Source of the DNA: an uncultured Actinomycetes bacterium
Lineage (GTDB): Bacteria; Actinomycetota; JAICYB01
Direction: 5' to 3'
Assembly (NCBI GenBank): GCA_964520325.1
Contig: CAZFOB010000003.1
Location: 154,745-218,744, forward strand
Length of the DNA stretch: 64,000 nucleotides
Every line of letters starts with the position of its first letter. Position 1 is the first letter of the stretch. The translations under genes and the position numbers were made by a program. The notes under the pieces were generated by a model, which was given only the letters and a program-made list of their open reading frames with translations, did not search any database and was not told the origin of the DNA. This document shows, in pieces, positions 478-5,531 of the stretch.

Positions 478-480
478 CCC

Positions 481-540
481 CGGTTAGTGCGCCGTGGTGC
501 CGGTTAGTACGCCGTGGTGCCCGTTAGTACGCCGTGGTGA
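481..540. repeat. Three tandem copies of a 20-bp unit GGTTAGT(R)CGCCGTGGTGCC in the convergent intergenic region
   Basis: Direct reading: ggttagtgcgccgtggtgcc / ggttagtacgccgtggtgcc / cgttagtacgccgtggtgaa. The last copy contains the TAA stop and final codons (TTAY*) of the minus-strand protease gene. Confidence 0.85.
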
Positions 541-2555: not shown

Positions 2556-3770
2556 CTAGATGATCTGTTGCTCCTTGAGCCGTGCGAGTTCCGTCTCGTT
2601 TACACCGAGCAGTTCGGCGTAGACCTCGGCGTTGTGCTGACCGAGCATGGGGGCCGGACCGATCTCGAGGTCCGACGCGCTGAGGTGGATCGGATTGCCG
2701 GGGACGTCGTAGGTACCGGCCTCAGGATGCGTCATCGACACGACCATGTCTCGTCCACGCAAGTGCTCGCTCGCGAGGAGGTCACCGGTGTCGAAGACCG
2801 CGCTGCACGGCACGCCGTTGTCCTGCATGGCTGCCATGACGTCGTACTTGTCGCGTGAGACCGTCCACGCCGCGATCAGGTCGTGGACGTCGTCCCAGTT
2901 GCTCGCGCGCCAGCCCGCGCTCGCCCATTGCTCGTCACCGATGAGATCGGTGCGGTCGATGGTTTTCAGGATGCCGTCCCACATCGCGGTGTTTGTCGCG
3001 ACGATGTACGCGTAGTCGTTCGGTCCTTCGCCCGCGCATCTGTAGACGTCGGCCGTCATGTACTTGAGCGGCGCTCCGCGCCGCATGGTCGGGATGCCTC
3101 CGGTGAGGTAATGCGACAGCATCGCGACGCGCGTGAAGTTCATCACTGCTTCCTGCATCGAGAGCTCAACTCGCTGACCAACACCAGTGCGTTGCCGCTG
3201 CACGTACGCCGCGAGGATGCCGACGGCGAGATGGACGCCCGTACCGGTGTCGCCCAGCGTTACGCCGAGACGCATCGGAGCACCGTCGGCCTCGCCGTTC
3301 ACGCTCATCGCACCACCCGCTGCTTGCCCGATCATGTCGAAGCTGCGGTAACTCGCGTAGGGACCCGAGTCGCCGAACCCGCGGATGCTCGCGTAGATCA
3401 ATCCCGGATGCACAACCCTCAGCTCGTCGTAGCTGAGCCCGAGCCGCTCCATCGTTCCCAGTGCGAAGTTCTCGACGAGGACGTCGAACTGCGGCAGTAA
3501 CTTGAGGAAGAGTTCGCGTCCTTTGTCGCTCTTGAGATCGAGCGTGACGCTGCACTTGTTGAGGTTCAACAACAGGAAGTACATCGAGTCGGTCGCCGGG
3601 CCCATGCCCATCGTCCGCCCCTGGTCGCCGCGCTTGGGGTCCTCCACCTTGATGACATCGGCGCCGAGGAAGGCGAGGAGCTCGGTGCAGGCGGGGCCCG
3701 CCTCGAACTGGGAGAGGTCGAGGATCCTGATGTCCGCAAGTGCGCTATCGGTCAGATCGGCCACGCTCAC
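2556..3770 (-). CDS. CoA-transferase family III (CaiB/BaiF-type)
   Basis: N-terminus ...IRILDLSQFEAGPACTELLAFLGADVIKVEDP... and length (404 aa) match family III acyl-CoA transferases. Confidence 0.85.
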   Translation of the reverse strand: MSVADLTDSALADIRILDLSQFEAGPACTELLAFLGADVIKVEDPKRGDQGRTMGMGPATDSMYFLLLNLNKCSVTLDLKSDKGRELFLKLLPQFDVLVENFALGTMERLGLSYDELRVVHPGLIYASIRGFGDSGPYASYRSFDMIGQAAGGAMSVNGEADGAPMRLGVTLGDTGTGVHLAVGILAAYVQRQRTGVGQRVELSMQEAVMNFTRVAMLSHYLTGGIPTMRRGAPLKYMTADVYRCAGEGPNDYAYIVATNTAMWDGILKTIDRTDLIGDEQWASAGWRASNWDDVHDLIAAWTVSRDKYDVMAAMQDNGVPCSAVFDTGDLLASEHLRGRDMVVSMTHPEAGTYDVPGNPIHLSASDLEIGPAPMLGQHNAEVYAELLGVNETELARLKEQQII

Positions 3771-3787
3771 ATGGTGCCGGAAACCCC

Positions 3788-3868
3788 TTGACGGGGTAAC
3801 CTACGGTAGCGTAGGGTACGGAACCGTAGGCTACGCAACCGTAGGTTACGGCCCCGTACGTTACCCCC
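3788..3868. promoter_or_regulatory. Putative promoter/operator: TTGACG -35-like hexamer followed by 4-5 tandem 15-bp units GTAGGnTACGnnnCC, each an imperfect palindrome
   Basis: Direct reading of cccTTGACGgggtaaCCTACGGTAGC GTAGGGTACGGAACC GTAGGCTACGCAACC GTAGGTTACGGCCCC GTACGTTACCCCC. It lies between the CoA-transferase and the desaturase start (RBS AGGAGGAGG at 3893-3901). Confidence 0.5.
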
Positions 3869-3909
3869 AAGAACCCCCAGCCAAGAACCCCAGGAGGAGG
3901 TCCCACCAG

Positions 3910-4866
3910 ATGGCCATCCAGACCCGCGACGTCCCGCCGCCCTCAGAAGAGATCCGCGGTGTGTTCGAGCTCACGGCTGCTCAGCTGCGCGTCCAGCGCC
4001 GCGTCACTCTCGTGTTCACGCTCATCCCATTCATCGGTGCCGTGCTCGCCATCACCCGGCTGTGGGGGACAGCCATCAGCGTCCTCGACTTCACGCTGTT
4101 CCTGTCCTTCTATCTGGCCGCCGGCGTCGGCATCACTGTCGGCAACCACCGCCTGTTCACGCACCGCAGCTTCAAGGCCGTGCGTCCGGTGCGGATCTTG
4201 CTCGCGCTGTTCGGGTCGATCGCCGTGCAGGGGTCGACGATCCAGTGGTGTGCGACGCACCGTCGTCACCACGCCTATGCCGACCAGTACGGCGATCCGC
4301 ACTCGCCGCACCTCGCGCAGGCGGCTGGGATAAAAGGCGTGCTCCTCGGGCTGTGGCACGCGCACAGTGGCTGGCTTTTCGAGGGAAAGGCTTCGGACGA
4401 GCGGGAGTGGACGCCGGATCTCGTCGCCGACAAGGACATCTCGTGGATCAGCCGCAACTTCCTCGGACTGACGATCATCTCGTTCACGCTTCCGGCGCTG
4501 ATCGCCTTCGCGGTCACGCAGTCGTTCACCGCCGCAGTCACGGCGTTCCTGTGGGGATCGCTTGTCCGCATCTTCCTCCTGCACCACGTGACGTGGAGCA
4601 TCAACTCGATCTGCCACTTCTACGGCAAAGAGGCGTACCGCGCGAAGGATGAGAGCAAGAACGTGTGGGCGCTCTCGCCGGTGAGCTTCGGTGAGTCGTG
4701 GCACAACAACCACCACGCGTTCCAGTGGTCGGCGAAGCTGGGCTTGCGCGCATGGCAGGTCGACATGGGCTGGTACGTGATCAGCACGCTCAAGGCGCTG
4801 CGCCTCGTCCGTGACGTGAAGGTTCCAACGAAGGACCAGATGGCCAAGCGTAAGCTTCCTGCGTGA
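3910..4866 (+). CDS. Membrane fatty-acid (acyl-CoA/acyl-lipid) desaturase, DesA3-like
   Basis: Three histidine boxes HRLFTHRSF, HRRHHAY, HNNHHAF and multiple TM segments. Start chosen at ATG 3910 after a strong RBS. The longer six-frame ORF from 3502 overlaps the upstream gene and encodes the repeat array. Confidence 0.8.
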   Translation: MAIQTRDVPPPSEEIRGVFELTAAQLRVQRRVTLVFTLIPFIGAVLAITRLWGTAISVLDFTLFLSFYLAAGVGITVGNHRLFTHRSFKAVRPVRILLALFGSIAVQGSTIQWCATHRRHHAYADQYGDPHSPHLAQAAGIKGVLLGLWHAHSGWLFEGKASDEREWTPDLVADKDISWISRNFLGLTIISFTLPALIAFAVTQSFTAAVTAFLWGSLVRIFLLHHVTWSINSICHFYGKEAYRAKDESKNVWALSPVSFGESWHNNHHAFQWSAKLGLRAWQVDMGWYVISTLKALRLVRDVKVPTKDQMAKRKLPA

Positions 4867-5531
4867 CCTCGCAGAAGCCTCAGCTCGAATCGATCGACGG
4901 AGGTCGCGCCAAGGCCGCTCCGCGCAAGCGGATGTCGGGACCGGAACGCCGCGAACAGCTCATCGGTGTCGCGAAGGAGCTCTTCGCCGAACAAGGCTAC
5001 GAAGCAACCTCGGTTGAAGAGATCGCGGAGAAGGCGAAGGTCAGCAAACCCGTCGTCTACGAGCACTTCGGCGGGAAGGAAGGCATCTACGCCGTCATCG
5101 TCGACCGCGAGATCCGTTCGCTCGCCGACCGGATCAAAGCCGCACTTTCTCCAGGATCTCCCCGCCGCACGATCGTGCGCGCCGTCGATGCGTTCTTGCG
5201 CTACATCGAGGAGGAGCAGGCCGGGTTCAAGATCCTCACCCGTGACGCGCCGGTCGGAGCGAGCCGCGGCTCGTTCCCGAGCGTGCTCGACGAGATCGCA
5301 CAGGCTGTCGAAGAGCTGCTCTCAGGCGAGCTCGATGATCGCGGGTTCAGCCCCGATATCGCCCCGGTGCTCTCGCGGTGTCTCGTCGGCATGATCGCCA
5401 TGCCCGGGCAATGGTGGCTCGAGACCGGCAAACCCCGCCGGCGTGACGTCGCCGATCAGATCGTGAACATCGCGTGGAATGGTCTCGGCGGACTGCGCCA
5501 CCGACGCACGCCGCGCGGCGACCGCATCTAG
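4863..5531 (+). CDS. TetR-family transcriptional regulator
   Basis: N-terminal HTH RREQLIGVAKELFAEQGYEATSVEEIAEKAKVSKPVVYEHFGGKEGIY. GTG start overlaps the desaturase stop (GTGA). Confidence 0.85.
   Translation: MTSQKPQLESIDGGRAKAAPRKRMSGPERREQLIGVAKELFAEQGYEATSVEEIAEKAKVSKPVVYEHFGGKEGIYAVIVDREIRSLADRIKAALSPGSPRRTIVRAVDAFLRYIEEEQAGFKILTRDAPVGASRGSFPSVLDEIAQAVEELLSGELDDRGFSPDIAPVLSRCLVGMIAMPGQWWLETGKPRRRDVADQIVNIAWNGLGGLRHRRTPRGDRI

What the first reader, a model, noticed from the sequence alone, without database searches (positions are those of the whole stretch)
3788..3868. Tandem array of 15-bp palindromic units overlapping the promoter of the desaturase-TetR operon
After a TTGACG hexamer come consecutive units GTAGGGTACGGAACC / GTAGGCTACGCAACC / GTAGGTTACGGCCCC, flanked by degenerate copies (CCTACGGTAGC upstream, GTACGTTACCCCC downstream). 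Each unit contains an inverted repeat CGTAGnCTACG. Such phased palindromes look like cooperative operator sites. The desaturase gene downstream is translationally coupled to a TetR regulator (GTGA overlap), a plausible auto-regulatory circuit responding to a lipid ligand. The spurious six-frame ORF translating this array as SVGYGTVGYATVGYGPVRY shows how regular it is.
Basis: seen in the sequence. Interest (0 to 1): 0.5.

Follow-up and report, generated by a model that had tools for sequence, protein, structure and literature searches.

The report
Expanded TetR operator at desaturase promoter
Four evenly spaced short palindromes lie on the promoter of a fatty-acid desaturase/TetR-repressor operon; they are an enlarged version (four sites instead of the usual two) of a repressor-binding site found across Actinomycetota, so the feature is real but largely expected.

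Summary
The array is real. TRF finds 4.2 copies of a 15-bp unit at 3802-3864. Alternating TACG/CGTA half-sites form a chain of 8 exact sites at 3802-3858, the only such chain in the 64-kb window; shuffles never gave 4 or more.

It is the operator of the adjacent TetR. In all 81 related loci with a desaturase followed by a TetR gene (Streptomyces, Micromonospora, Amycolatopsis, Kribbella, Nocardiopsis, MAGs), the same palindrome, TACG-N4-CGTA, lies upstream of the desaturase and almost nowhere else. Seventeen loci have one copy, 61 have two copies 15 bp apart, one contig has three, and only this window has four. Two desaturase homologues without a TetR gene downstream have no motif.

In this window's clade the first palindrome fills the spacer and -10 of a conserved TTGACG-17/18-TAnnnT promoter. 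The rest cover the predicted start site and early leader.

A Streptomyces homologue (55% identical) looks like the orthologue of SCO3129. Published EMSA and knockout work shows that SCO3129 binds and represses the SCO3128 desaturase promoter, and DAP-seq finds that binding conserved in 17 actinomycetes.

The closest solved structure is the acyl-CoA sensor FasR.

Verdict: an orthologous member of a known circuit with a twofold expanded operator. Binding stoichiometry and ligand are inferred, not shown.

The parts
3788..3793 (+). predicted -35 hexamer TTGACG of the desaturase-TetR operon promoter
   Evidence: TTGACN-17/18 nt-TAnnnT is found at the same position relative to the first palindrome in the window and in L081, L084/L110, L087, L088, L094, L096, L108 and L111. 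This is a prediction only; no TSS data. The generic sigma-70 scan found nothing.
3812..3817 (+). predicted -10 hexamer TAGGGT (TAnnnT), 18 nt after the -35; it overlaps the right half-site of palindrome 1
   Evidence: inferred from conserved spacing in relatives
3802..3813 (.). operator palindrome 1, TACGGTAGCGTA (TACG-N4-CGTA); lies in the promoter spacer and -10
3817..3828 (.). operator palindrome 2, TACGGAACCGTA; covers the predicted transcription start (about 3824)
3832..3843 (.). operator palindrome 3, TACGCAACCGTA; an extra copy relative to the canonical two-palindrome operator
3847..3858 (.). operator palindrome 4, TACGGCCCCGTA; an extra copy seen only in this window
3795..3798 (.). degenerate outer half-site GGTA (CGTA with 1 mismatch), 7 bp before the first TACG
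   Evidence: read; the whole array 3793-3867 matches its own reverse complement at 54 of 75 positions, with matching ends GGGGTAAC/GTTACCCC
3862..3865 (.). degenerate outer half-site TACC (TACG with 1 mismatch), 7 bp after the last CGTA
3892..3900 (+). Shine-Dalgarno-like AGGAGGAGG, 9 nt before the ATG at 3910
3910..4866 (+). acyl-CoA (delta-9 type) fatty-acid desaturase, 318 aa
   Evidence: Pfam FA_desaturase, 9e-15. Homologues of 317-328 aa align over the full length from residue 1; some sources name them stearoyl-CoA/acyl-CoA desaturase.
4863..5531 (+). TetR-family regulator, 222 aa; its start overlaps the desaturase stop (GTGA)
   Evidence: Pfam TetR_N, 4e-17. 55% identical to the Streptomyces homologue taken as the SCO3129 orthologue. 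30-33% identical to FasR. The same 4-nt overlap is seen in L081, L108 and L109. An internal ATG at codon 24 is an alternative start, because many homologues are about 197 aa.
2556..3770 (-). divergent CoA-transferase family III gene sharing the 139-bp intergenic region; co-regulation is possible but not shown
   Evidence: Pfam CoA_transf_3, 3e-106. In S. coelicolor a gene of the same annotated family (SCO3130) is the third gene of the operon. No homologue is present in the other loci.

Best explanation
The array is the operator of the TetR repressor encoded at 4863-5531. It lies on the promoter of the desaturase-TetR operon, which that repressor controls.

The basic site is the 12-bp palindrome TACG-N4-CGTA (extended consensus c[c/t]TACGnnnnCGTA[g/a]g). 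One TetR dimer probably binds each palindrome. Most Actinomycetota have two such palindromes 15 bp apart. This genome has four in strict 15-bp phase, plus a degenerate half-site at each end, most likely through tandem duplication of the 15-bp unit.

Palindrome 1 lies in the spacer and -10 of the predicted promoter (TTGACG 3788-3793, TAGGGT 3812-3817). Palindrome 2 covers the predicted start site. Palindromes 3 and 4 cover about +9 to +35. Bound repressor would therefore block RNA polymerase binding and open-complex formation, and would also act as a roadblock.

The repressor gene is the second gene of the operon, so the circuit is negatively autoregulated. A ligand would release the repressor. 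By analogy with FasR, that ligand is probably a long-chain acyl-CoA that reports membrane lipid status.

Shown here: the motif, its conservation, its exclusive link to desaturase+TetR loci, and its position relative to conserved promoter-like hexamers.

Shown by others for the S. coelicolor system taken as orthologous: promoter binding and repression.

Inferred: one dimer per palindrome, occupancy of all four palindromes, the TSS, the ligand, and duplication as the origin.
For: - Array statistics.
- Synteny: a desaturase sits directly upstream of the TetR gene in about 70 of 80 genome loci and in metagenome relatives.
- Rigid spacing: TACG-N4-CGTA-N3-TACG-N4-CGTA in 59 of 61 instances. Information content peaks on the half-sites, while the N4 spacers vary.
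- Universality: all 81 desaturase+TetR loci have at least one exact TACG-N4-CGTA upstream (17 have one, 61 have two, 2 have three [one contig fetched twice], and the window has four). The alternative register CGTA-N3/4-TACG is absent from 8 of them.
- Specificity: chains of 3 or more half-sites occur only upstream of the desaturase in 733 kb of loci. There are 150 A-type palindromes in 742 kb, nearly all accounted for by these sites.
- Co-occurrence: desaturase homologues without a TetR downstream (L091, L098) have no motif.
- Selection on the extra copies: the four units differ at 0 of 48 core comparisons and at 22 of 42 non-core comparisons.
- Conserved promoter hexamers around the first palindrome.
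- Link to SCO3129: the EMSA probe primer 3128EF maps with 1 mismatch to L080:2783, just upstream of that locus's operator at 2827-2853. The ends of the L080 TetR match the ends encoded by the SCO3129 primers, and it is 55% identical to the window TetR with an identical VSKPVVYEHFGGKEG recognition region.
- Published repression and binding: PMC6223229. Binding conserved across 17 actinomycetes.
- FasR is the best PDB match by sequence (E 6e-26) and by fold (TM 0.72-0.78 normalised to the target; model pLDDT 73). FasR is released from DNA by C16 or longer acyl-CoA, binds three inverted repeats, and packs neighbouring dimers on one DNA in the crystal. Its co-crystal oligonucleotide contains CCGTACGTAG.
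Against: - Nothing has been measured for this protein or this DNA.
- The S. coelicolor paper mapped binding only to a 150-bp probe, with no footprint, so the motif-to-protein assignment rests on conservation.
- Which register is the dimer site is not proven. The central triplet of CGTA-GGT-TACG is itself well conserved, although this may reflect the -10 hexamer.
- The promoter and TSS are predictions. The generic sigma-70 scan found no promoter.
- In Streptomyces the promoter-like hexamers sit one unit further upstream, so the operator/promoter geometry is not uniform.
- The published inducing signal is osmotic stress, not a lipid.
- Orthology to SCO3129 was inferred through a Streptomyces sp. 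locus and primer sequences, not from the SCO3129 sequence itself.
- The structural model is of only moderate confidence.
Confidence: 0.8

Rival explanations
1. The regulator and function are the same, but the dimer-binding unit is the palindrome the first reader saw, (C)CGTA-N3-TACG(G). The array then holds three full sites plus flanking halves, or pairs of dimers bind overlapping sites as in QacR.
For: CCGTA-GGT-TACGG is a perfect 13-bp palindrome, and its central triplet is more conserved than the N4 spacers. Amycolatopsis loci begin with this register.
Against: Eight desaturase+TetR loci have no exact site in this register, yet all 81 have TACG-N4-CGTA. Minimal operators such as L071 and L023 consist of that palindrome alone. 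Conservation of the central triplet can be explained by its role as the TAnnnT -10 hexamer in this window's clade.
Confidence: 0.25
2. The two extra units are a neutral replication-slippage product. Only the ancestral two palindromes work, and the additional copies have no regulatory effect.
For: Copy number varies among the nearest relatives: 2 in L081, L108, L109 and L111, 3 in L084, 4 in the window. This is as expected for an unstable 15-bp tandem.
Against: All eight core bases are intact in all four copies, while 22 of 42 non-core comparisons differ. This indicates the copies are old enough to have diverged and that the cores are under constraint. Any intact palindrome would bind the repressor regardless.
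Confidence: 0.15
3. The expansion serves something other than tighter repression of the desaturase. Either it extends control to the divergent CoA-transferase III gene (2556-3770), or each unit's TAGGnT acts as an additional -10 element, creating several start sites.
For: The intergenic region is only 139 bp, and the array fills the middle of it. A gene annotated in the same family, SCO3130, belongs to the SCO3129-controlled operon in S. coelicolor. Every unit contains a TAnnnT hexamer on both strands.
Against: No homologous CoA-transferase is linked in any other locus. No promoter for the minus-strand gene was identified. Only the first TAnnnT has a -35 at the right distance.
Confidence: 0.15
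4. The palindromes act as RNA, as a structured 5' leader (attenuator or riboswitch-like), rather than as DNA sites.
For: Units 2-4 would be transcribed if the TSS is near 3824, and they can pair.
Against: There is no Rfam match above noise (best 21.6 bits against a gathering score of 110). The leader fold is not unusual (z -0.9). Across taxa the half-sites are fixed in sequence rather than covarying. Flanking bases break pairing (T..G in Streptomyces, C..A in Micromonospora). In this clade half the motif lies upstream of the predicted TSS.
Confidence: 0.03
5. The array is bound by a different, possibly global, regulator and not by the adjacent TetR.
For: No direct binding data exist for this locus.
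Against: The motif strictly co-occurs with the TetR gene. Binding of the likely orthologue SCO3129 to the corresponding promoter fragment is published. The window holds only one such site in 64 kb.
Confidence: 0.05

Closest known systems
SCO3129 / SCO3128-3130 operon of Streptomyces coelicolor (He et al. 2018, PMC6223229; multiDAP preprint 10.64898/2026.06.06.730586)
   Same: The gene order is the same: membrane desaturase, then TetR. The TetR is 55% identical to a Streptomyces homologue taken as the SCO3129 orthologue, with an identical recognition-helix region. The same TACG-N4-CGTA palindromes lie in the region covered by the published EMSA probe. The regulator is a repressor of its own operon.
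   Different: This window has four palindromes instead of two. In this clade the promoter hexamers overlap the first palindrome, whereas in Streptomyces the -10 lies just upstream of the operator. The CoA-transferase III gene is divergent here rather than the third gene of the operon. The 2018 paper did not define the operator sequence. The published inducing signal is osmotic stress.
FasR of Mycobacterium tuberculosis (Rv3208; PDB 6O6N/6O6O/6O6P; PMC7382501)
   Same: It is the best solved relative by both sequence (E 6e-26, about 32% identity over both domains) and fold. The recognition helix is similar (VSKPVLYQHF versus VSKPVVYEHF). FasR binds several inverted repeats in one promoter and is released by long-chain acyl-CoA. 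Its co-crystal oligonucleotide contains CCGTACGTAG, which resembles the half-sites here.
   Different: FasR is an activator of fas-acpS and is not linked to a desaturase. It is a paralogue, not the orthologue. The ligand of the window protein is untested.
DesT of Pseudomonas aeruginosa (TetR-family regulator of the desCB acyl-CoA desaturase operon; from general knowledge, Zhang/Rock 2007, Miller 2010)
   Same: A TetR-family repressor controls an acyl-CoA desaturase through a palindromic operator, and its ligand is acyl-CoA. It is the textbook analogue for how this circuit probably works.
   Different: It is not among the 60 best PDB sequence matches. As I recall, desT is transcribed separately from desCB and has a single palindrome; neither point was checked here. 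It comes from a different phylum.
QacR/CgmR-type TetR operators that bind two dimers (from general knowledge)
   Same: The canonical 27-bp operator with four half-sites resembles in size the long operators bound by two TetR-family dimers on different faces of the DNA. A spacing of 15 bp puts successive dimers about 150 degrees apart.
   Different: Stoichiometry here is unknown. Four phased sites are more than in those systems.
MadR (Rv0472c), TetR regulator of the mycolic-acid desaturases desA1/desA2 (PMC8872791)
   Same: It is an actinobacterial TetR that senses acyl-CoA and represses desaturase genes.
   Different: Its motif is different (TCTGTGxxxxxxxGT). Its targets are soluble acyl-ACP-type desaturases, and it is not co-transcribed with them.

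Membership tests
SCO3129-type desaturase/TetR autoregulated operon (Actinomycetota) | The TetR protein is orthologous to SCO3129 | tested here: met
   55% identity over 191 aa to the TetR of L080, a Streptomyces sp.. The termini of that protein (MMVAVAT......HLIGRRKS) match those encoded by the SCO3129 cloning primers (MIDAVAT, RLIGHRKS). Identity to the paralogue FasR is only about 32%. Reciprocal best hit against the S. coelicolor genome was not run.
SCO3129-type desaturase/TetR autoregulated operon (Actinomycetota) | A membrane acyl-CoA desaturase gene lies immediately upstream of, and co-directional with, the TetR gene | tested here: met
   Desaturase 3910-4866 and TetR 4863-5531 overlap by 4 nt. 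About 70 genome loci and the metagenome relatives show the same order.
SCO3129-type desaturase/TetR autoregulated operon (Actinomycetota) | A conserved operator of TACG-N4-CGTA palindromes lies upstream of the desaturase (defined here) | tested here: met
   81 of 81 loci carry it; the window has four copies.
SCO3129-type desaturase/TetR autoregulated operon (Actinomycetota) | The TetR binds the promoter and represses the operon | not testable with these tools
   Shown only for S. coelicolor (EMSA, knockout) and by DAP-seq across 17 actinomycetes.
SCO3129-type desaturase/TetR autoregulated operon (Actinomycetota) | A CoA-transferase III (L-carnitine dehydratase, SCO3130) is the third gene of the operon | tested here: not met
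   In the window a CoA_transf_3 gene is divergent upstream (2556-3770, minus strand), and the gene after the TetR is a glycosyltransferase. The feature is also absent from the other loci, including Streptomyces, so it does not define the family.
FasR (TetR-like activator of fatty-acid synthase genes) | Sequence and fold similarity over both domains | tested here: met
   E 6e-26 over residues 22-210. Foldseek top five hits are all FasR, TM 0.72-0.78 normalised to the target, from a model with pLDDT 73.
FasR (TetR-like activator of fatty-acid synthase genes) | Controls fas/fab genes as an activator | tested here: not met
   The neighbour is a desaturase, not fas or fab. The sites overlap the -10 and the predicted TSS, which is repressor geometry. 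The system taken as orthologous is a repressor.
FasR (TetR-like activator of fatty-acid synthase genes) | Released from DNA by long-chain acyl-CoA | not testable with these tools
   This is an inference from homology only.
DesT-type regulator (Pseudomonas) | Sequence orthology to DesT | tested here: inconclusive
   No DesT entry is among the 60 best PDB sequence matches. A direct comparison was not run.
Structured RNA leader (any Rfam family) | A match to a covariance model at its gathering score | tested here: not met
   The best hit scores 21.6 bits against a gathering score of 110. Leader fold z-score is -0.9.
Coding tandem repeat (N-terminal extension of the desaturase) | An open frame through the repeat that is conserved in relatives | tested here: not met
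   The frame is open in the window only. L081, L084, L109 and L111 have stops, and homologues start at MAIQ....

The most novel reading that the evidence does not exclude
Operator copy number at this promoter evolves quickly by gain and loss of 15-bp units (1, 2, 3 or 4 palindromes among relatives). This may act as a tuning knob for the set-point and steepness of desaturase induction. In this genome, a filament of four TetR dimers about 65 bp long would give switch-like repression and might also silence the divergent CoA-transferase gene. That would be a natural example of regulatory evolution by operator-array expansion rather than by change in the protein.
Probability: 0.25. Interest if true: 0.45.

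Novelty: new member of a known kind. Interest (0 to 1): 0.3.

Why it matters
The analysis gives an explicit operator, TACG-N4-CGTA at 15-bp phasing, for a desaturase regulator found across Actinomycetota. The 2018 EMSA study did not map that binding site, and I could not find these motif strings in the searchable literature. It links the regulator to the FasR acyl-CoA-sensing branch of the TetR family, which suggests a testable ligand for a circuit so far described only as osmotic-stress responsive. The natural series of 1, 2, 3 and 4 palindromes is ready-made material for testing how operator multiplicity shapes repression. Beyond that, this is an expected kind of bacterial regulatory site.

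Tried and rejected
- A lead from memory, that MSMEG_1885 is a TetR next to desA3, was wrong. It is the Rv3230c-type oxidoreductase, and that operon is controlled by Rv1019 through a different 12-bp repeat.
- Searching papers for the motif strings CGTAGGTTACG and variants gave only irrelevant hits. A keyword search for desaturase/TetR/Streptomyces was uninformative. The gene-number search (SCO3128/3129) found the relevant work.
- The supplements of the DAP-seq preprint give site counts per genome for SCO3129 (1-4, and 0 in one of the 17) but no motif.
- The generic sigma-70 and terminator scan found nothing in 3600-4000.
- Rfam found nothing credible, and the RNA fold of the leader is unremarkable. 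The ssDNA fold of the array is significant (z -4.4), but that follows from its being palindromic and is not evidence of function.
- Coding repeat: rejected.
- Linkage of a CoA-transferase III gene to the operon as a general feature: rejected. There is no homologue in the other loci, and L080 has a methyltransferase and a MarR gene downstream.
- TetR relatives not next to a desaturase (L002, L006, L028, L030, L033, L065, L069) carry no palindrome anywhere in their roughly 8.5 kb. They are either paralogues or unlinked, and were not pursued.
- The organism could not be named. Cluster look-ups returned no names. The nearest relatives are soil metagenome contigs and MAGs labelled Actinomycetota.

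Full report
**Observation.** A TTGACG hexamer sits at 3788-3793. It is followed by 15-bp units, each containing CGTAGGnTACG. Tandem Repeats Finder reports 3802-3864, period 15, 4.2 copies, 81% matches. CGTAGGNTACG with up to one mismatch occurs 10 times in the window against 1.9 expected; none of 100 shuffles reached 10, and half of the hits are in the array. I then treated the array as alternating CGTA and TACG half-sites 7-9 bp apart. This gives a chain of eight exact half-sites at 3802-3858, with one degenerate half-site at each end (GGTA at 3795, TACC at 3862). No other chain of three or more exists in the 64 kb. Two hundred shuffles gave three chains of three and none longer.

**Genes.** The desaturase has the Pfam FA_desaturase domain. 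Its homologues are 317-328 aa and align from residue 1; some sources name them stearoyl-/acyl-CoA desaturase. The next gene (4863-5531) is a TetR-family regulator whose GTG start overlaps the desaturase stop (GTGA). The same 4-nt overlap is found in the closest relatives L081, L108 and L109. More distant homologues are about 197 aa and start after a gap of about 70 nt, so an internal start at Met24 cannot be excluded.

**Comparative evidence.**
- A profile of the TetR retrieved 80 genome loci from Streptomyces, Micromonospora, Amycolatopsis, Kribbella, Nocardiopsis and other genera, with 52-57% identity. The desaturase retrieved 24 metagenome loci. Exact look-ups gave further near relatives.
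- About 70 of the 80 genome loci have a desaturase directly upstream of the TetR gene.
- The region 10-180 bp upstream of the desaturase start carries the same motif everywhere. Fifty-nine of 61 instances have the rigid layout TACG-N4-CGTA-N3-TACG-N4-CGTA. The consensus is cTTACGnnncCGTAgGTTACGGnncCGTAGg. Information content peaks on the half-sites, and the N4 spacers vary.
- All 81 loci with desaturase plus TetR and enough upstream sequence have at least one exact TACG-N4-CGTA. Seventeen have one and 61 have two. One contig, fetched twice as L084 and L110, has three. Only this window has four.
- The other register, CGTA-N3/4-TACG, is missing from eight of these loci. Minimal operators such as L071 and L023 consist of a single TACG-N4-CGTA. 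I therefore take that palindrome as the basic unit.
- Chains of three or more half-sites occur once per locus, always upstream of the desaturase, and nowhere else in 733 kb. Of 150 such palindromes in 742 kb, nearly all are these sites.
- Two desaturase homologues with adequate flanks but no TetR downstream (L091, L098) have no motif. L098 sits behind a cold-shock protein gene and a terminator-like hairpin.

**Promoter geometry.** In the window and ten near relatives, the pattern TTGACN, 17-18 nt, TAnnnT is present at a fixed position. The first palindrome begins 13-14 nt after the start of the -35 hexamer. Its CGTA half-site supplies the TA of the -10 hexamer. For the window this gives -35 at 3788-3793, -10 at 3812-3817, and a predicted start near 3824. 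Palindromes 1 to 4 then fall at about -22/-11, -7/+5, +9/+20 and +24/+35. In Streptomyces, a conserved TTGCCn-16-CATACT lies immediately upstream of the operator. So the operator abuts or overlaps the core promoter in both groups, but with a shift of one unit. These are predictions: the generic sigma-70 scan found nothing, and no TSS data were available.

**Link to experiment.** He et al. 2018 (PMC6223229) showed that S. coelicolor SCO3128 (desaturase), SCO3129 (TetR) and SCO3130 (L-carnitine dehydratase family) form one transcript. Deletion of SCO3129 derepresses it. His-SCO3129 shifts a 150-bp probe upstream of SCO3128 but not the neighbouring SCO3127 promoter. No footprint or motif was reported. 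The forward primer of that probe matches L080, L077 and L074 with 1-2 mismatches. In L080 it lies 25 nt upstream of that locus's operator, so the probe spans the motif. The L080 TetR has termini matching those encoded by the SCO3129 cloning primers. It is 55% identical to the window protein, with an identical VSKPVVYEHFGGKEG recognition region. A 2026 preprint reports by DAP-seq that SCO3129 binds SCO3128 orthologues in 17 actinomycetes. It also reports binding at an acyl-ACP desaturase gene (SCO6717) and at SCO4976-4979, with about 1-4 sites per genome.

**The regulator's family and likely ligand.** The best PDB sequence matches are the three M. tuberculosis FasR entries (E 6e-26, residues 22-210, about 32% identity). 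The codes were confirmed in PMC7382501. An AlphaFold model (pLDDT 73) has FasR as its five best Foldseek hits, followed by other TetRs including the acyl-CoA-binding FadR of Bacillus. FasR binds three inverted repeats in its target promoter and is released by acyl-CoA of C16 or longer. In the crystal, neighbouring dimers sit side by side on one DNA. The co-crystal oligonucleotide contains CCGTACGTAG, which resembles the half-sites here. This makes a long-chain acyl-CoA the most likely effector, but that is inference. The only published inducing condition for SCO3129 is osmotic stress.

**What is special here.** The operator is doubled relative to the norm. The nearest relatives (TetR 82-90% identical) have two or three palindromes, so copy number changes on a short evolutionary scale, most simply by slippage of the 15-bp unit. 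The four copies differ at none of 48 pairwise comparisons of core bases and at 22 of 42 comparisons of non-core bases. This argues that the added copies are not recent identical duplicates and that their cores are constrained. A spacing of 15 bp places successive dimers about 150 degrees apart around the helix, which would allow close packing. Four bound dimers would cover about 65 bp, from the promoter spacer into the leader. Occupancy, cooperativity and any effect on the divergent CoA-transferase gene are untested.

**Rivals.**
- An RNA leader element is unlikely. There is no Rfam match, and the leader fold is not unusual (z -0.9). The half-sites are fixed rather than covarying, the flanking bases break pairing, and half the motif lies upstream of the predicted start.
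- A coding repeat is excluded. The open frame through the array is peculiar to this window.
- A different regulator is unlikely, given the strict co-occurrence with the TetR gene and the published binding data.
- Two questions remain open: whether the dimer site is the other register, and whether the extra units add promoters or serve the divergent gene.

**Verdict.** This is a real, non-random regulatory element: the operator of an apparent SCO3129 orthologue on its own desaturase operon, with four palindromes instead of two. It is a member of a known circuit. The added value is an explicit, phylum-wide operator definition, the link to FasR, and a natural copy-number series. Interest is modest.

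Noticed in passing
window 480-539: Three near-perfect tandem copies of a 20-bp unit (CCGGTTAGTACGCCGTGGTG, 95% matches). They lie between the 3' end of a sulfotransferase-domain gene (7-477, +) and the 3' end of a convergent Peptidase_M10-like gene (524-1198, -). Their function is unknown.
   Followed up: partly
window 3867-3891: An exact 11-bp direct repeat, CCAAGAACCCC, occurs twice 14 bp apart in the predicted 5' leader, between the operator array and the Shine-Dalgarno sequence. It is absent from the leaders of the close relatives L081, L084 and L108-L111. It may be a second local duplication.
   Followed up: partly
window 3502-4866: The desaturase reading frame stays open for 408 nt upstream of the ATG, through the whole array and into the opposite-strand CoA-transferase gene. 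An ORF caller could therefore mis-annotate a 454-aa protein with a VGYGT-like repeat. Relatives show this is not coding.
   Followed up: yes
window 2556-3770 (-): A CoA-transferase family III gene is divergent from the operator region. In S. coelicolor a gene annotated in the same family (SCO3130, L-carnitine dehydratase) is co-transcribed with the desaturase and TetR and is needed for salt tolerance. No homologue is linked in any other locus examined. Whether this repeated association is meaningful is open.
   Followed up: partly
L095, L097, L098 (e.g. L098:1066-1500): Desaturase homologues (59-62% identical) with no motif. In L098, with 1.5 kb of downstream flank, there is also no TetR gene; the flanks of L095 and L097 are too short to judge. 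In L098 the desaturase sits directly after a cold-shock protein gene (GTVKWF..KGFGFI..VFVH motif) and a GC-rich hairpin; L095 and L097 show the same hairpin. This suggests a different, possibly cold-linked, mode of control in that lineage.
   Followed up: partly
L012, L013, L015, L021, L024, L035, L038, L045, L050, L053, L055, L068, L071, L073, L079 upstream regions: In many Amycolatopsis, Kribbella and other loci, the sequence just upstream of the operator looks like a minus-strand tRNA gene (for example ...CCAGGATTCGAACCTG...CTGCCGATTACACTACGGCGG...). The operon there would neighbour a tRNA. This was not checked with ARAGORN.
   Followed up: no
L002, L006, L028, L030, L033, L065, L069: These TetR relatives (52-57% identical) are not next to a desaturase and have no TACG-N4-CGTA palindrome anywhere in about 8.5 kb. 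They are either paralogues with another specificity or orthologues unlinked from their target.
   Followed up: partly
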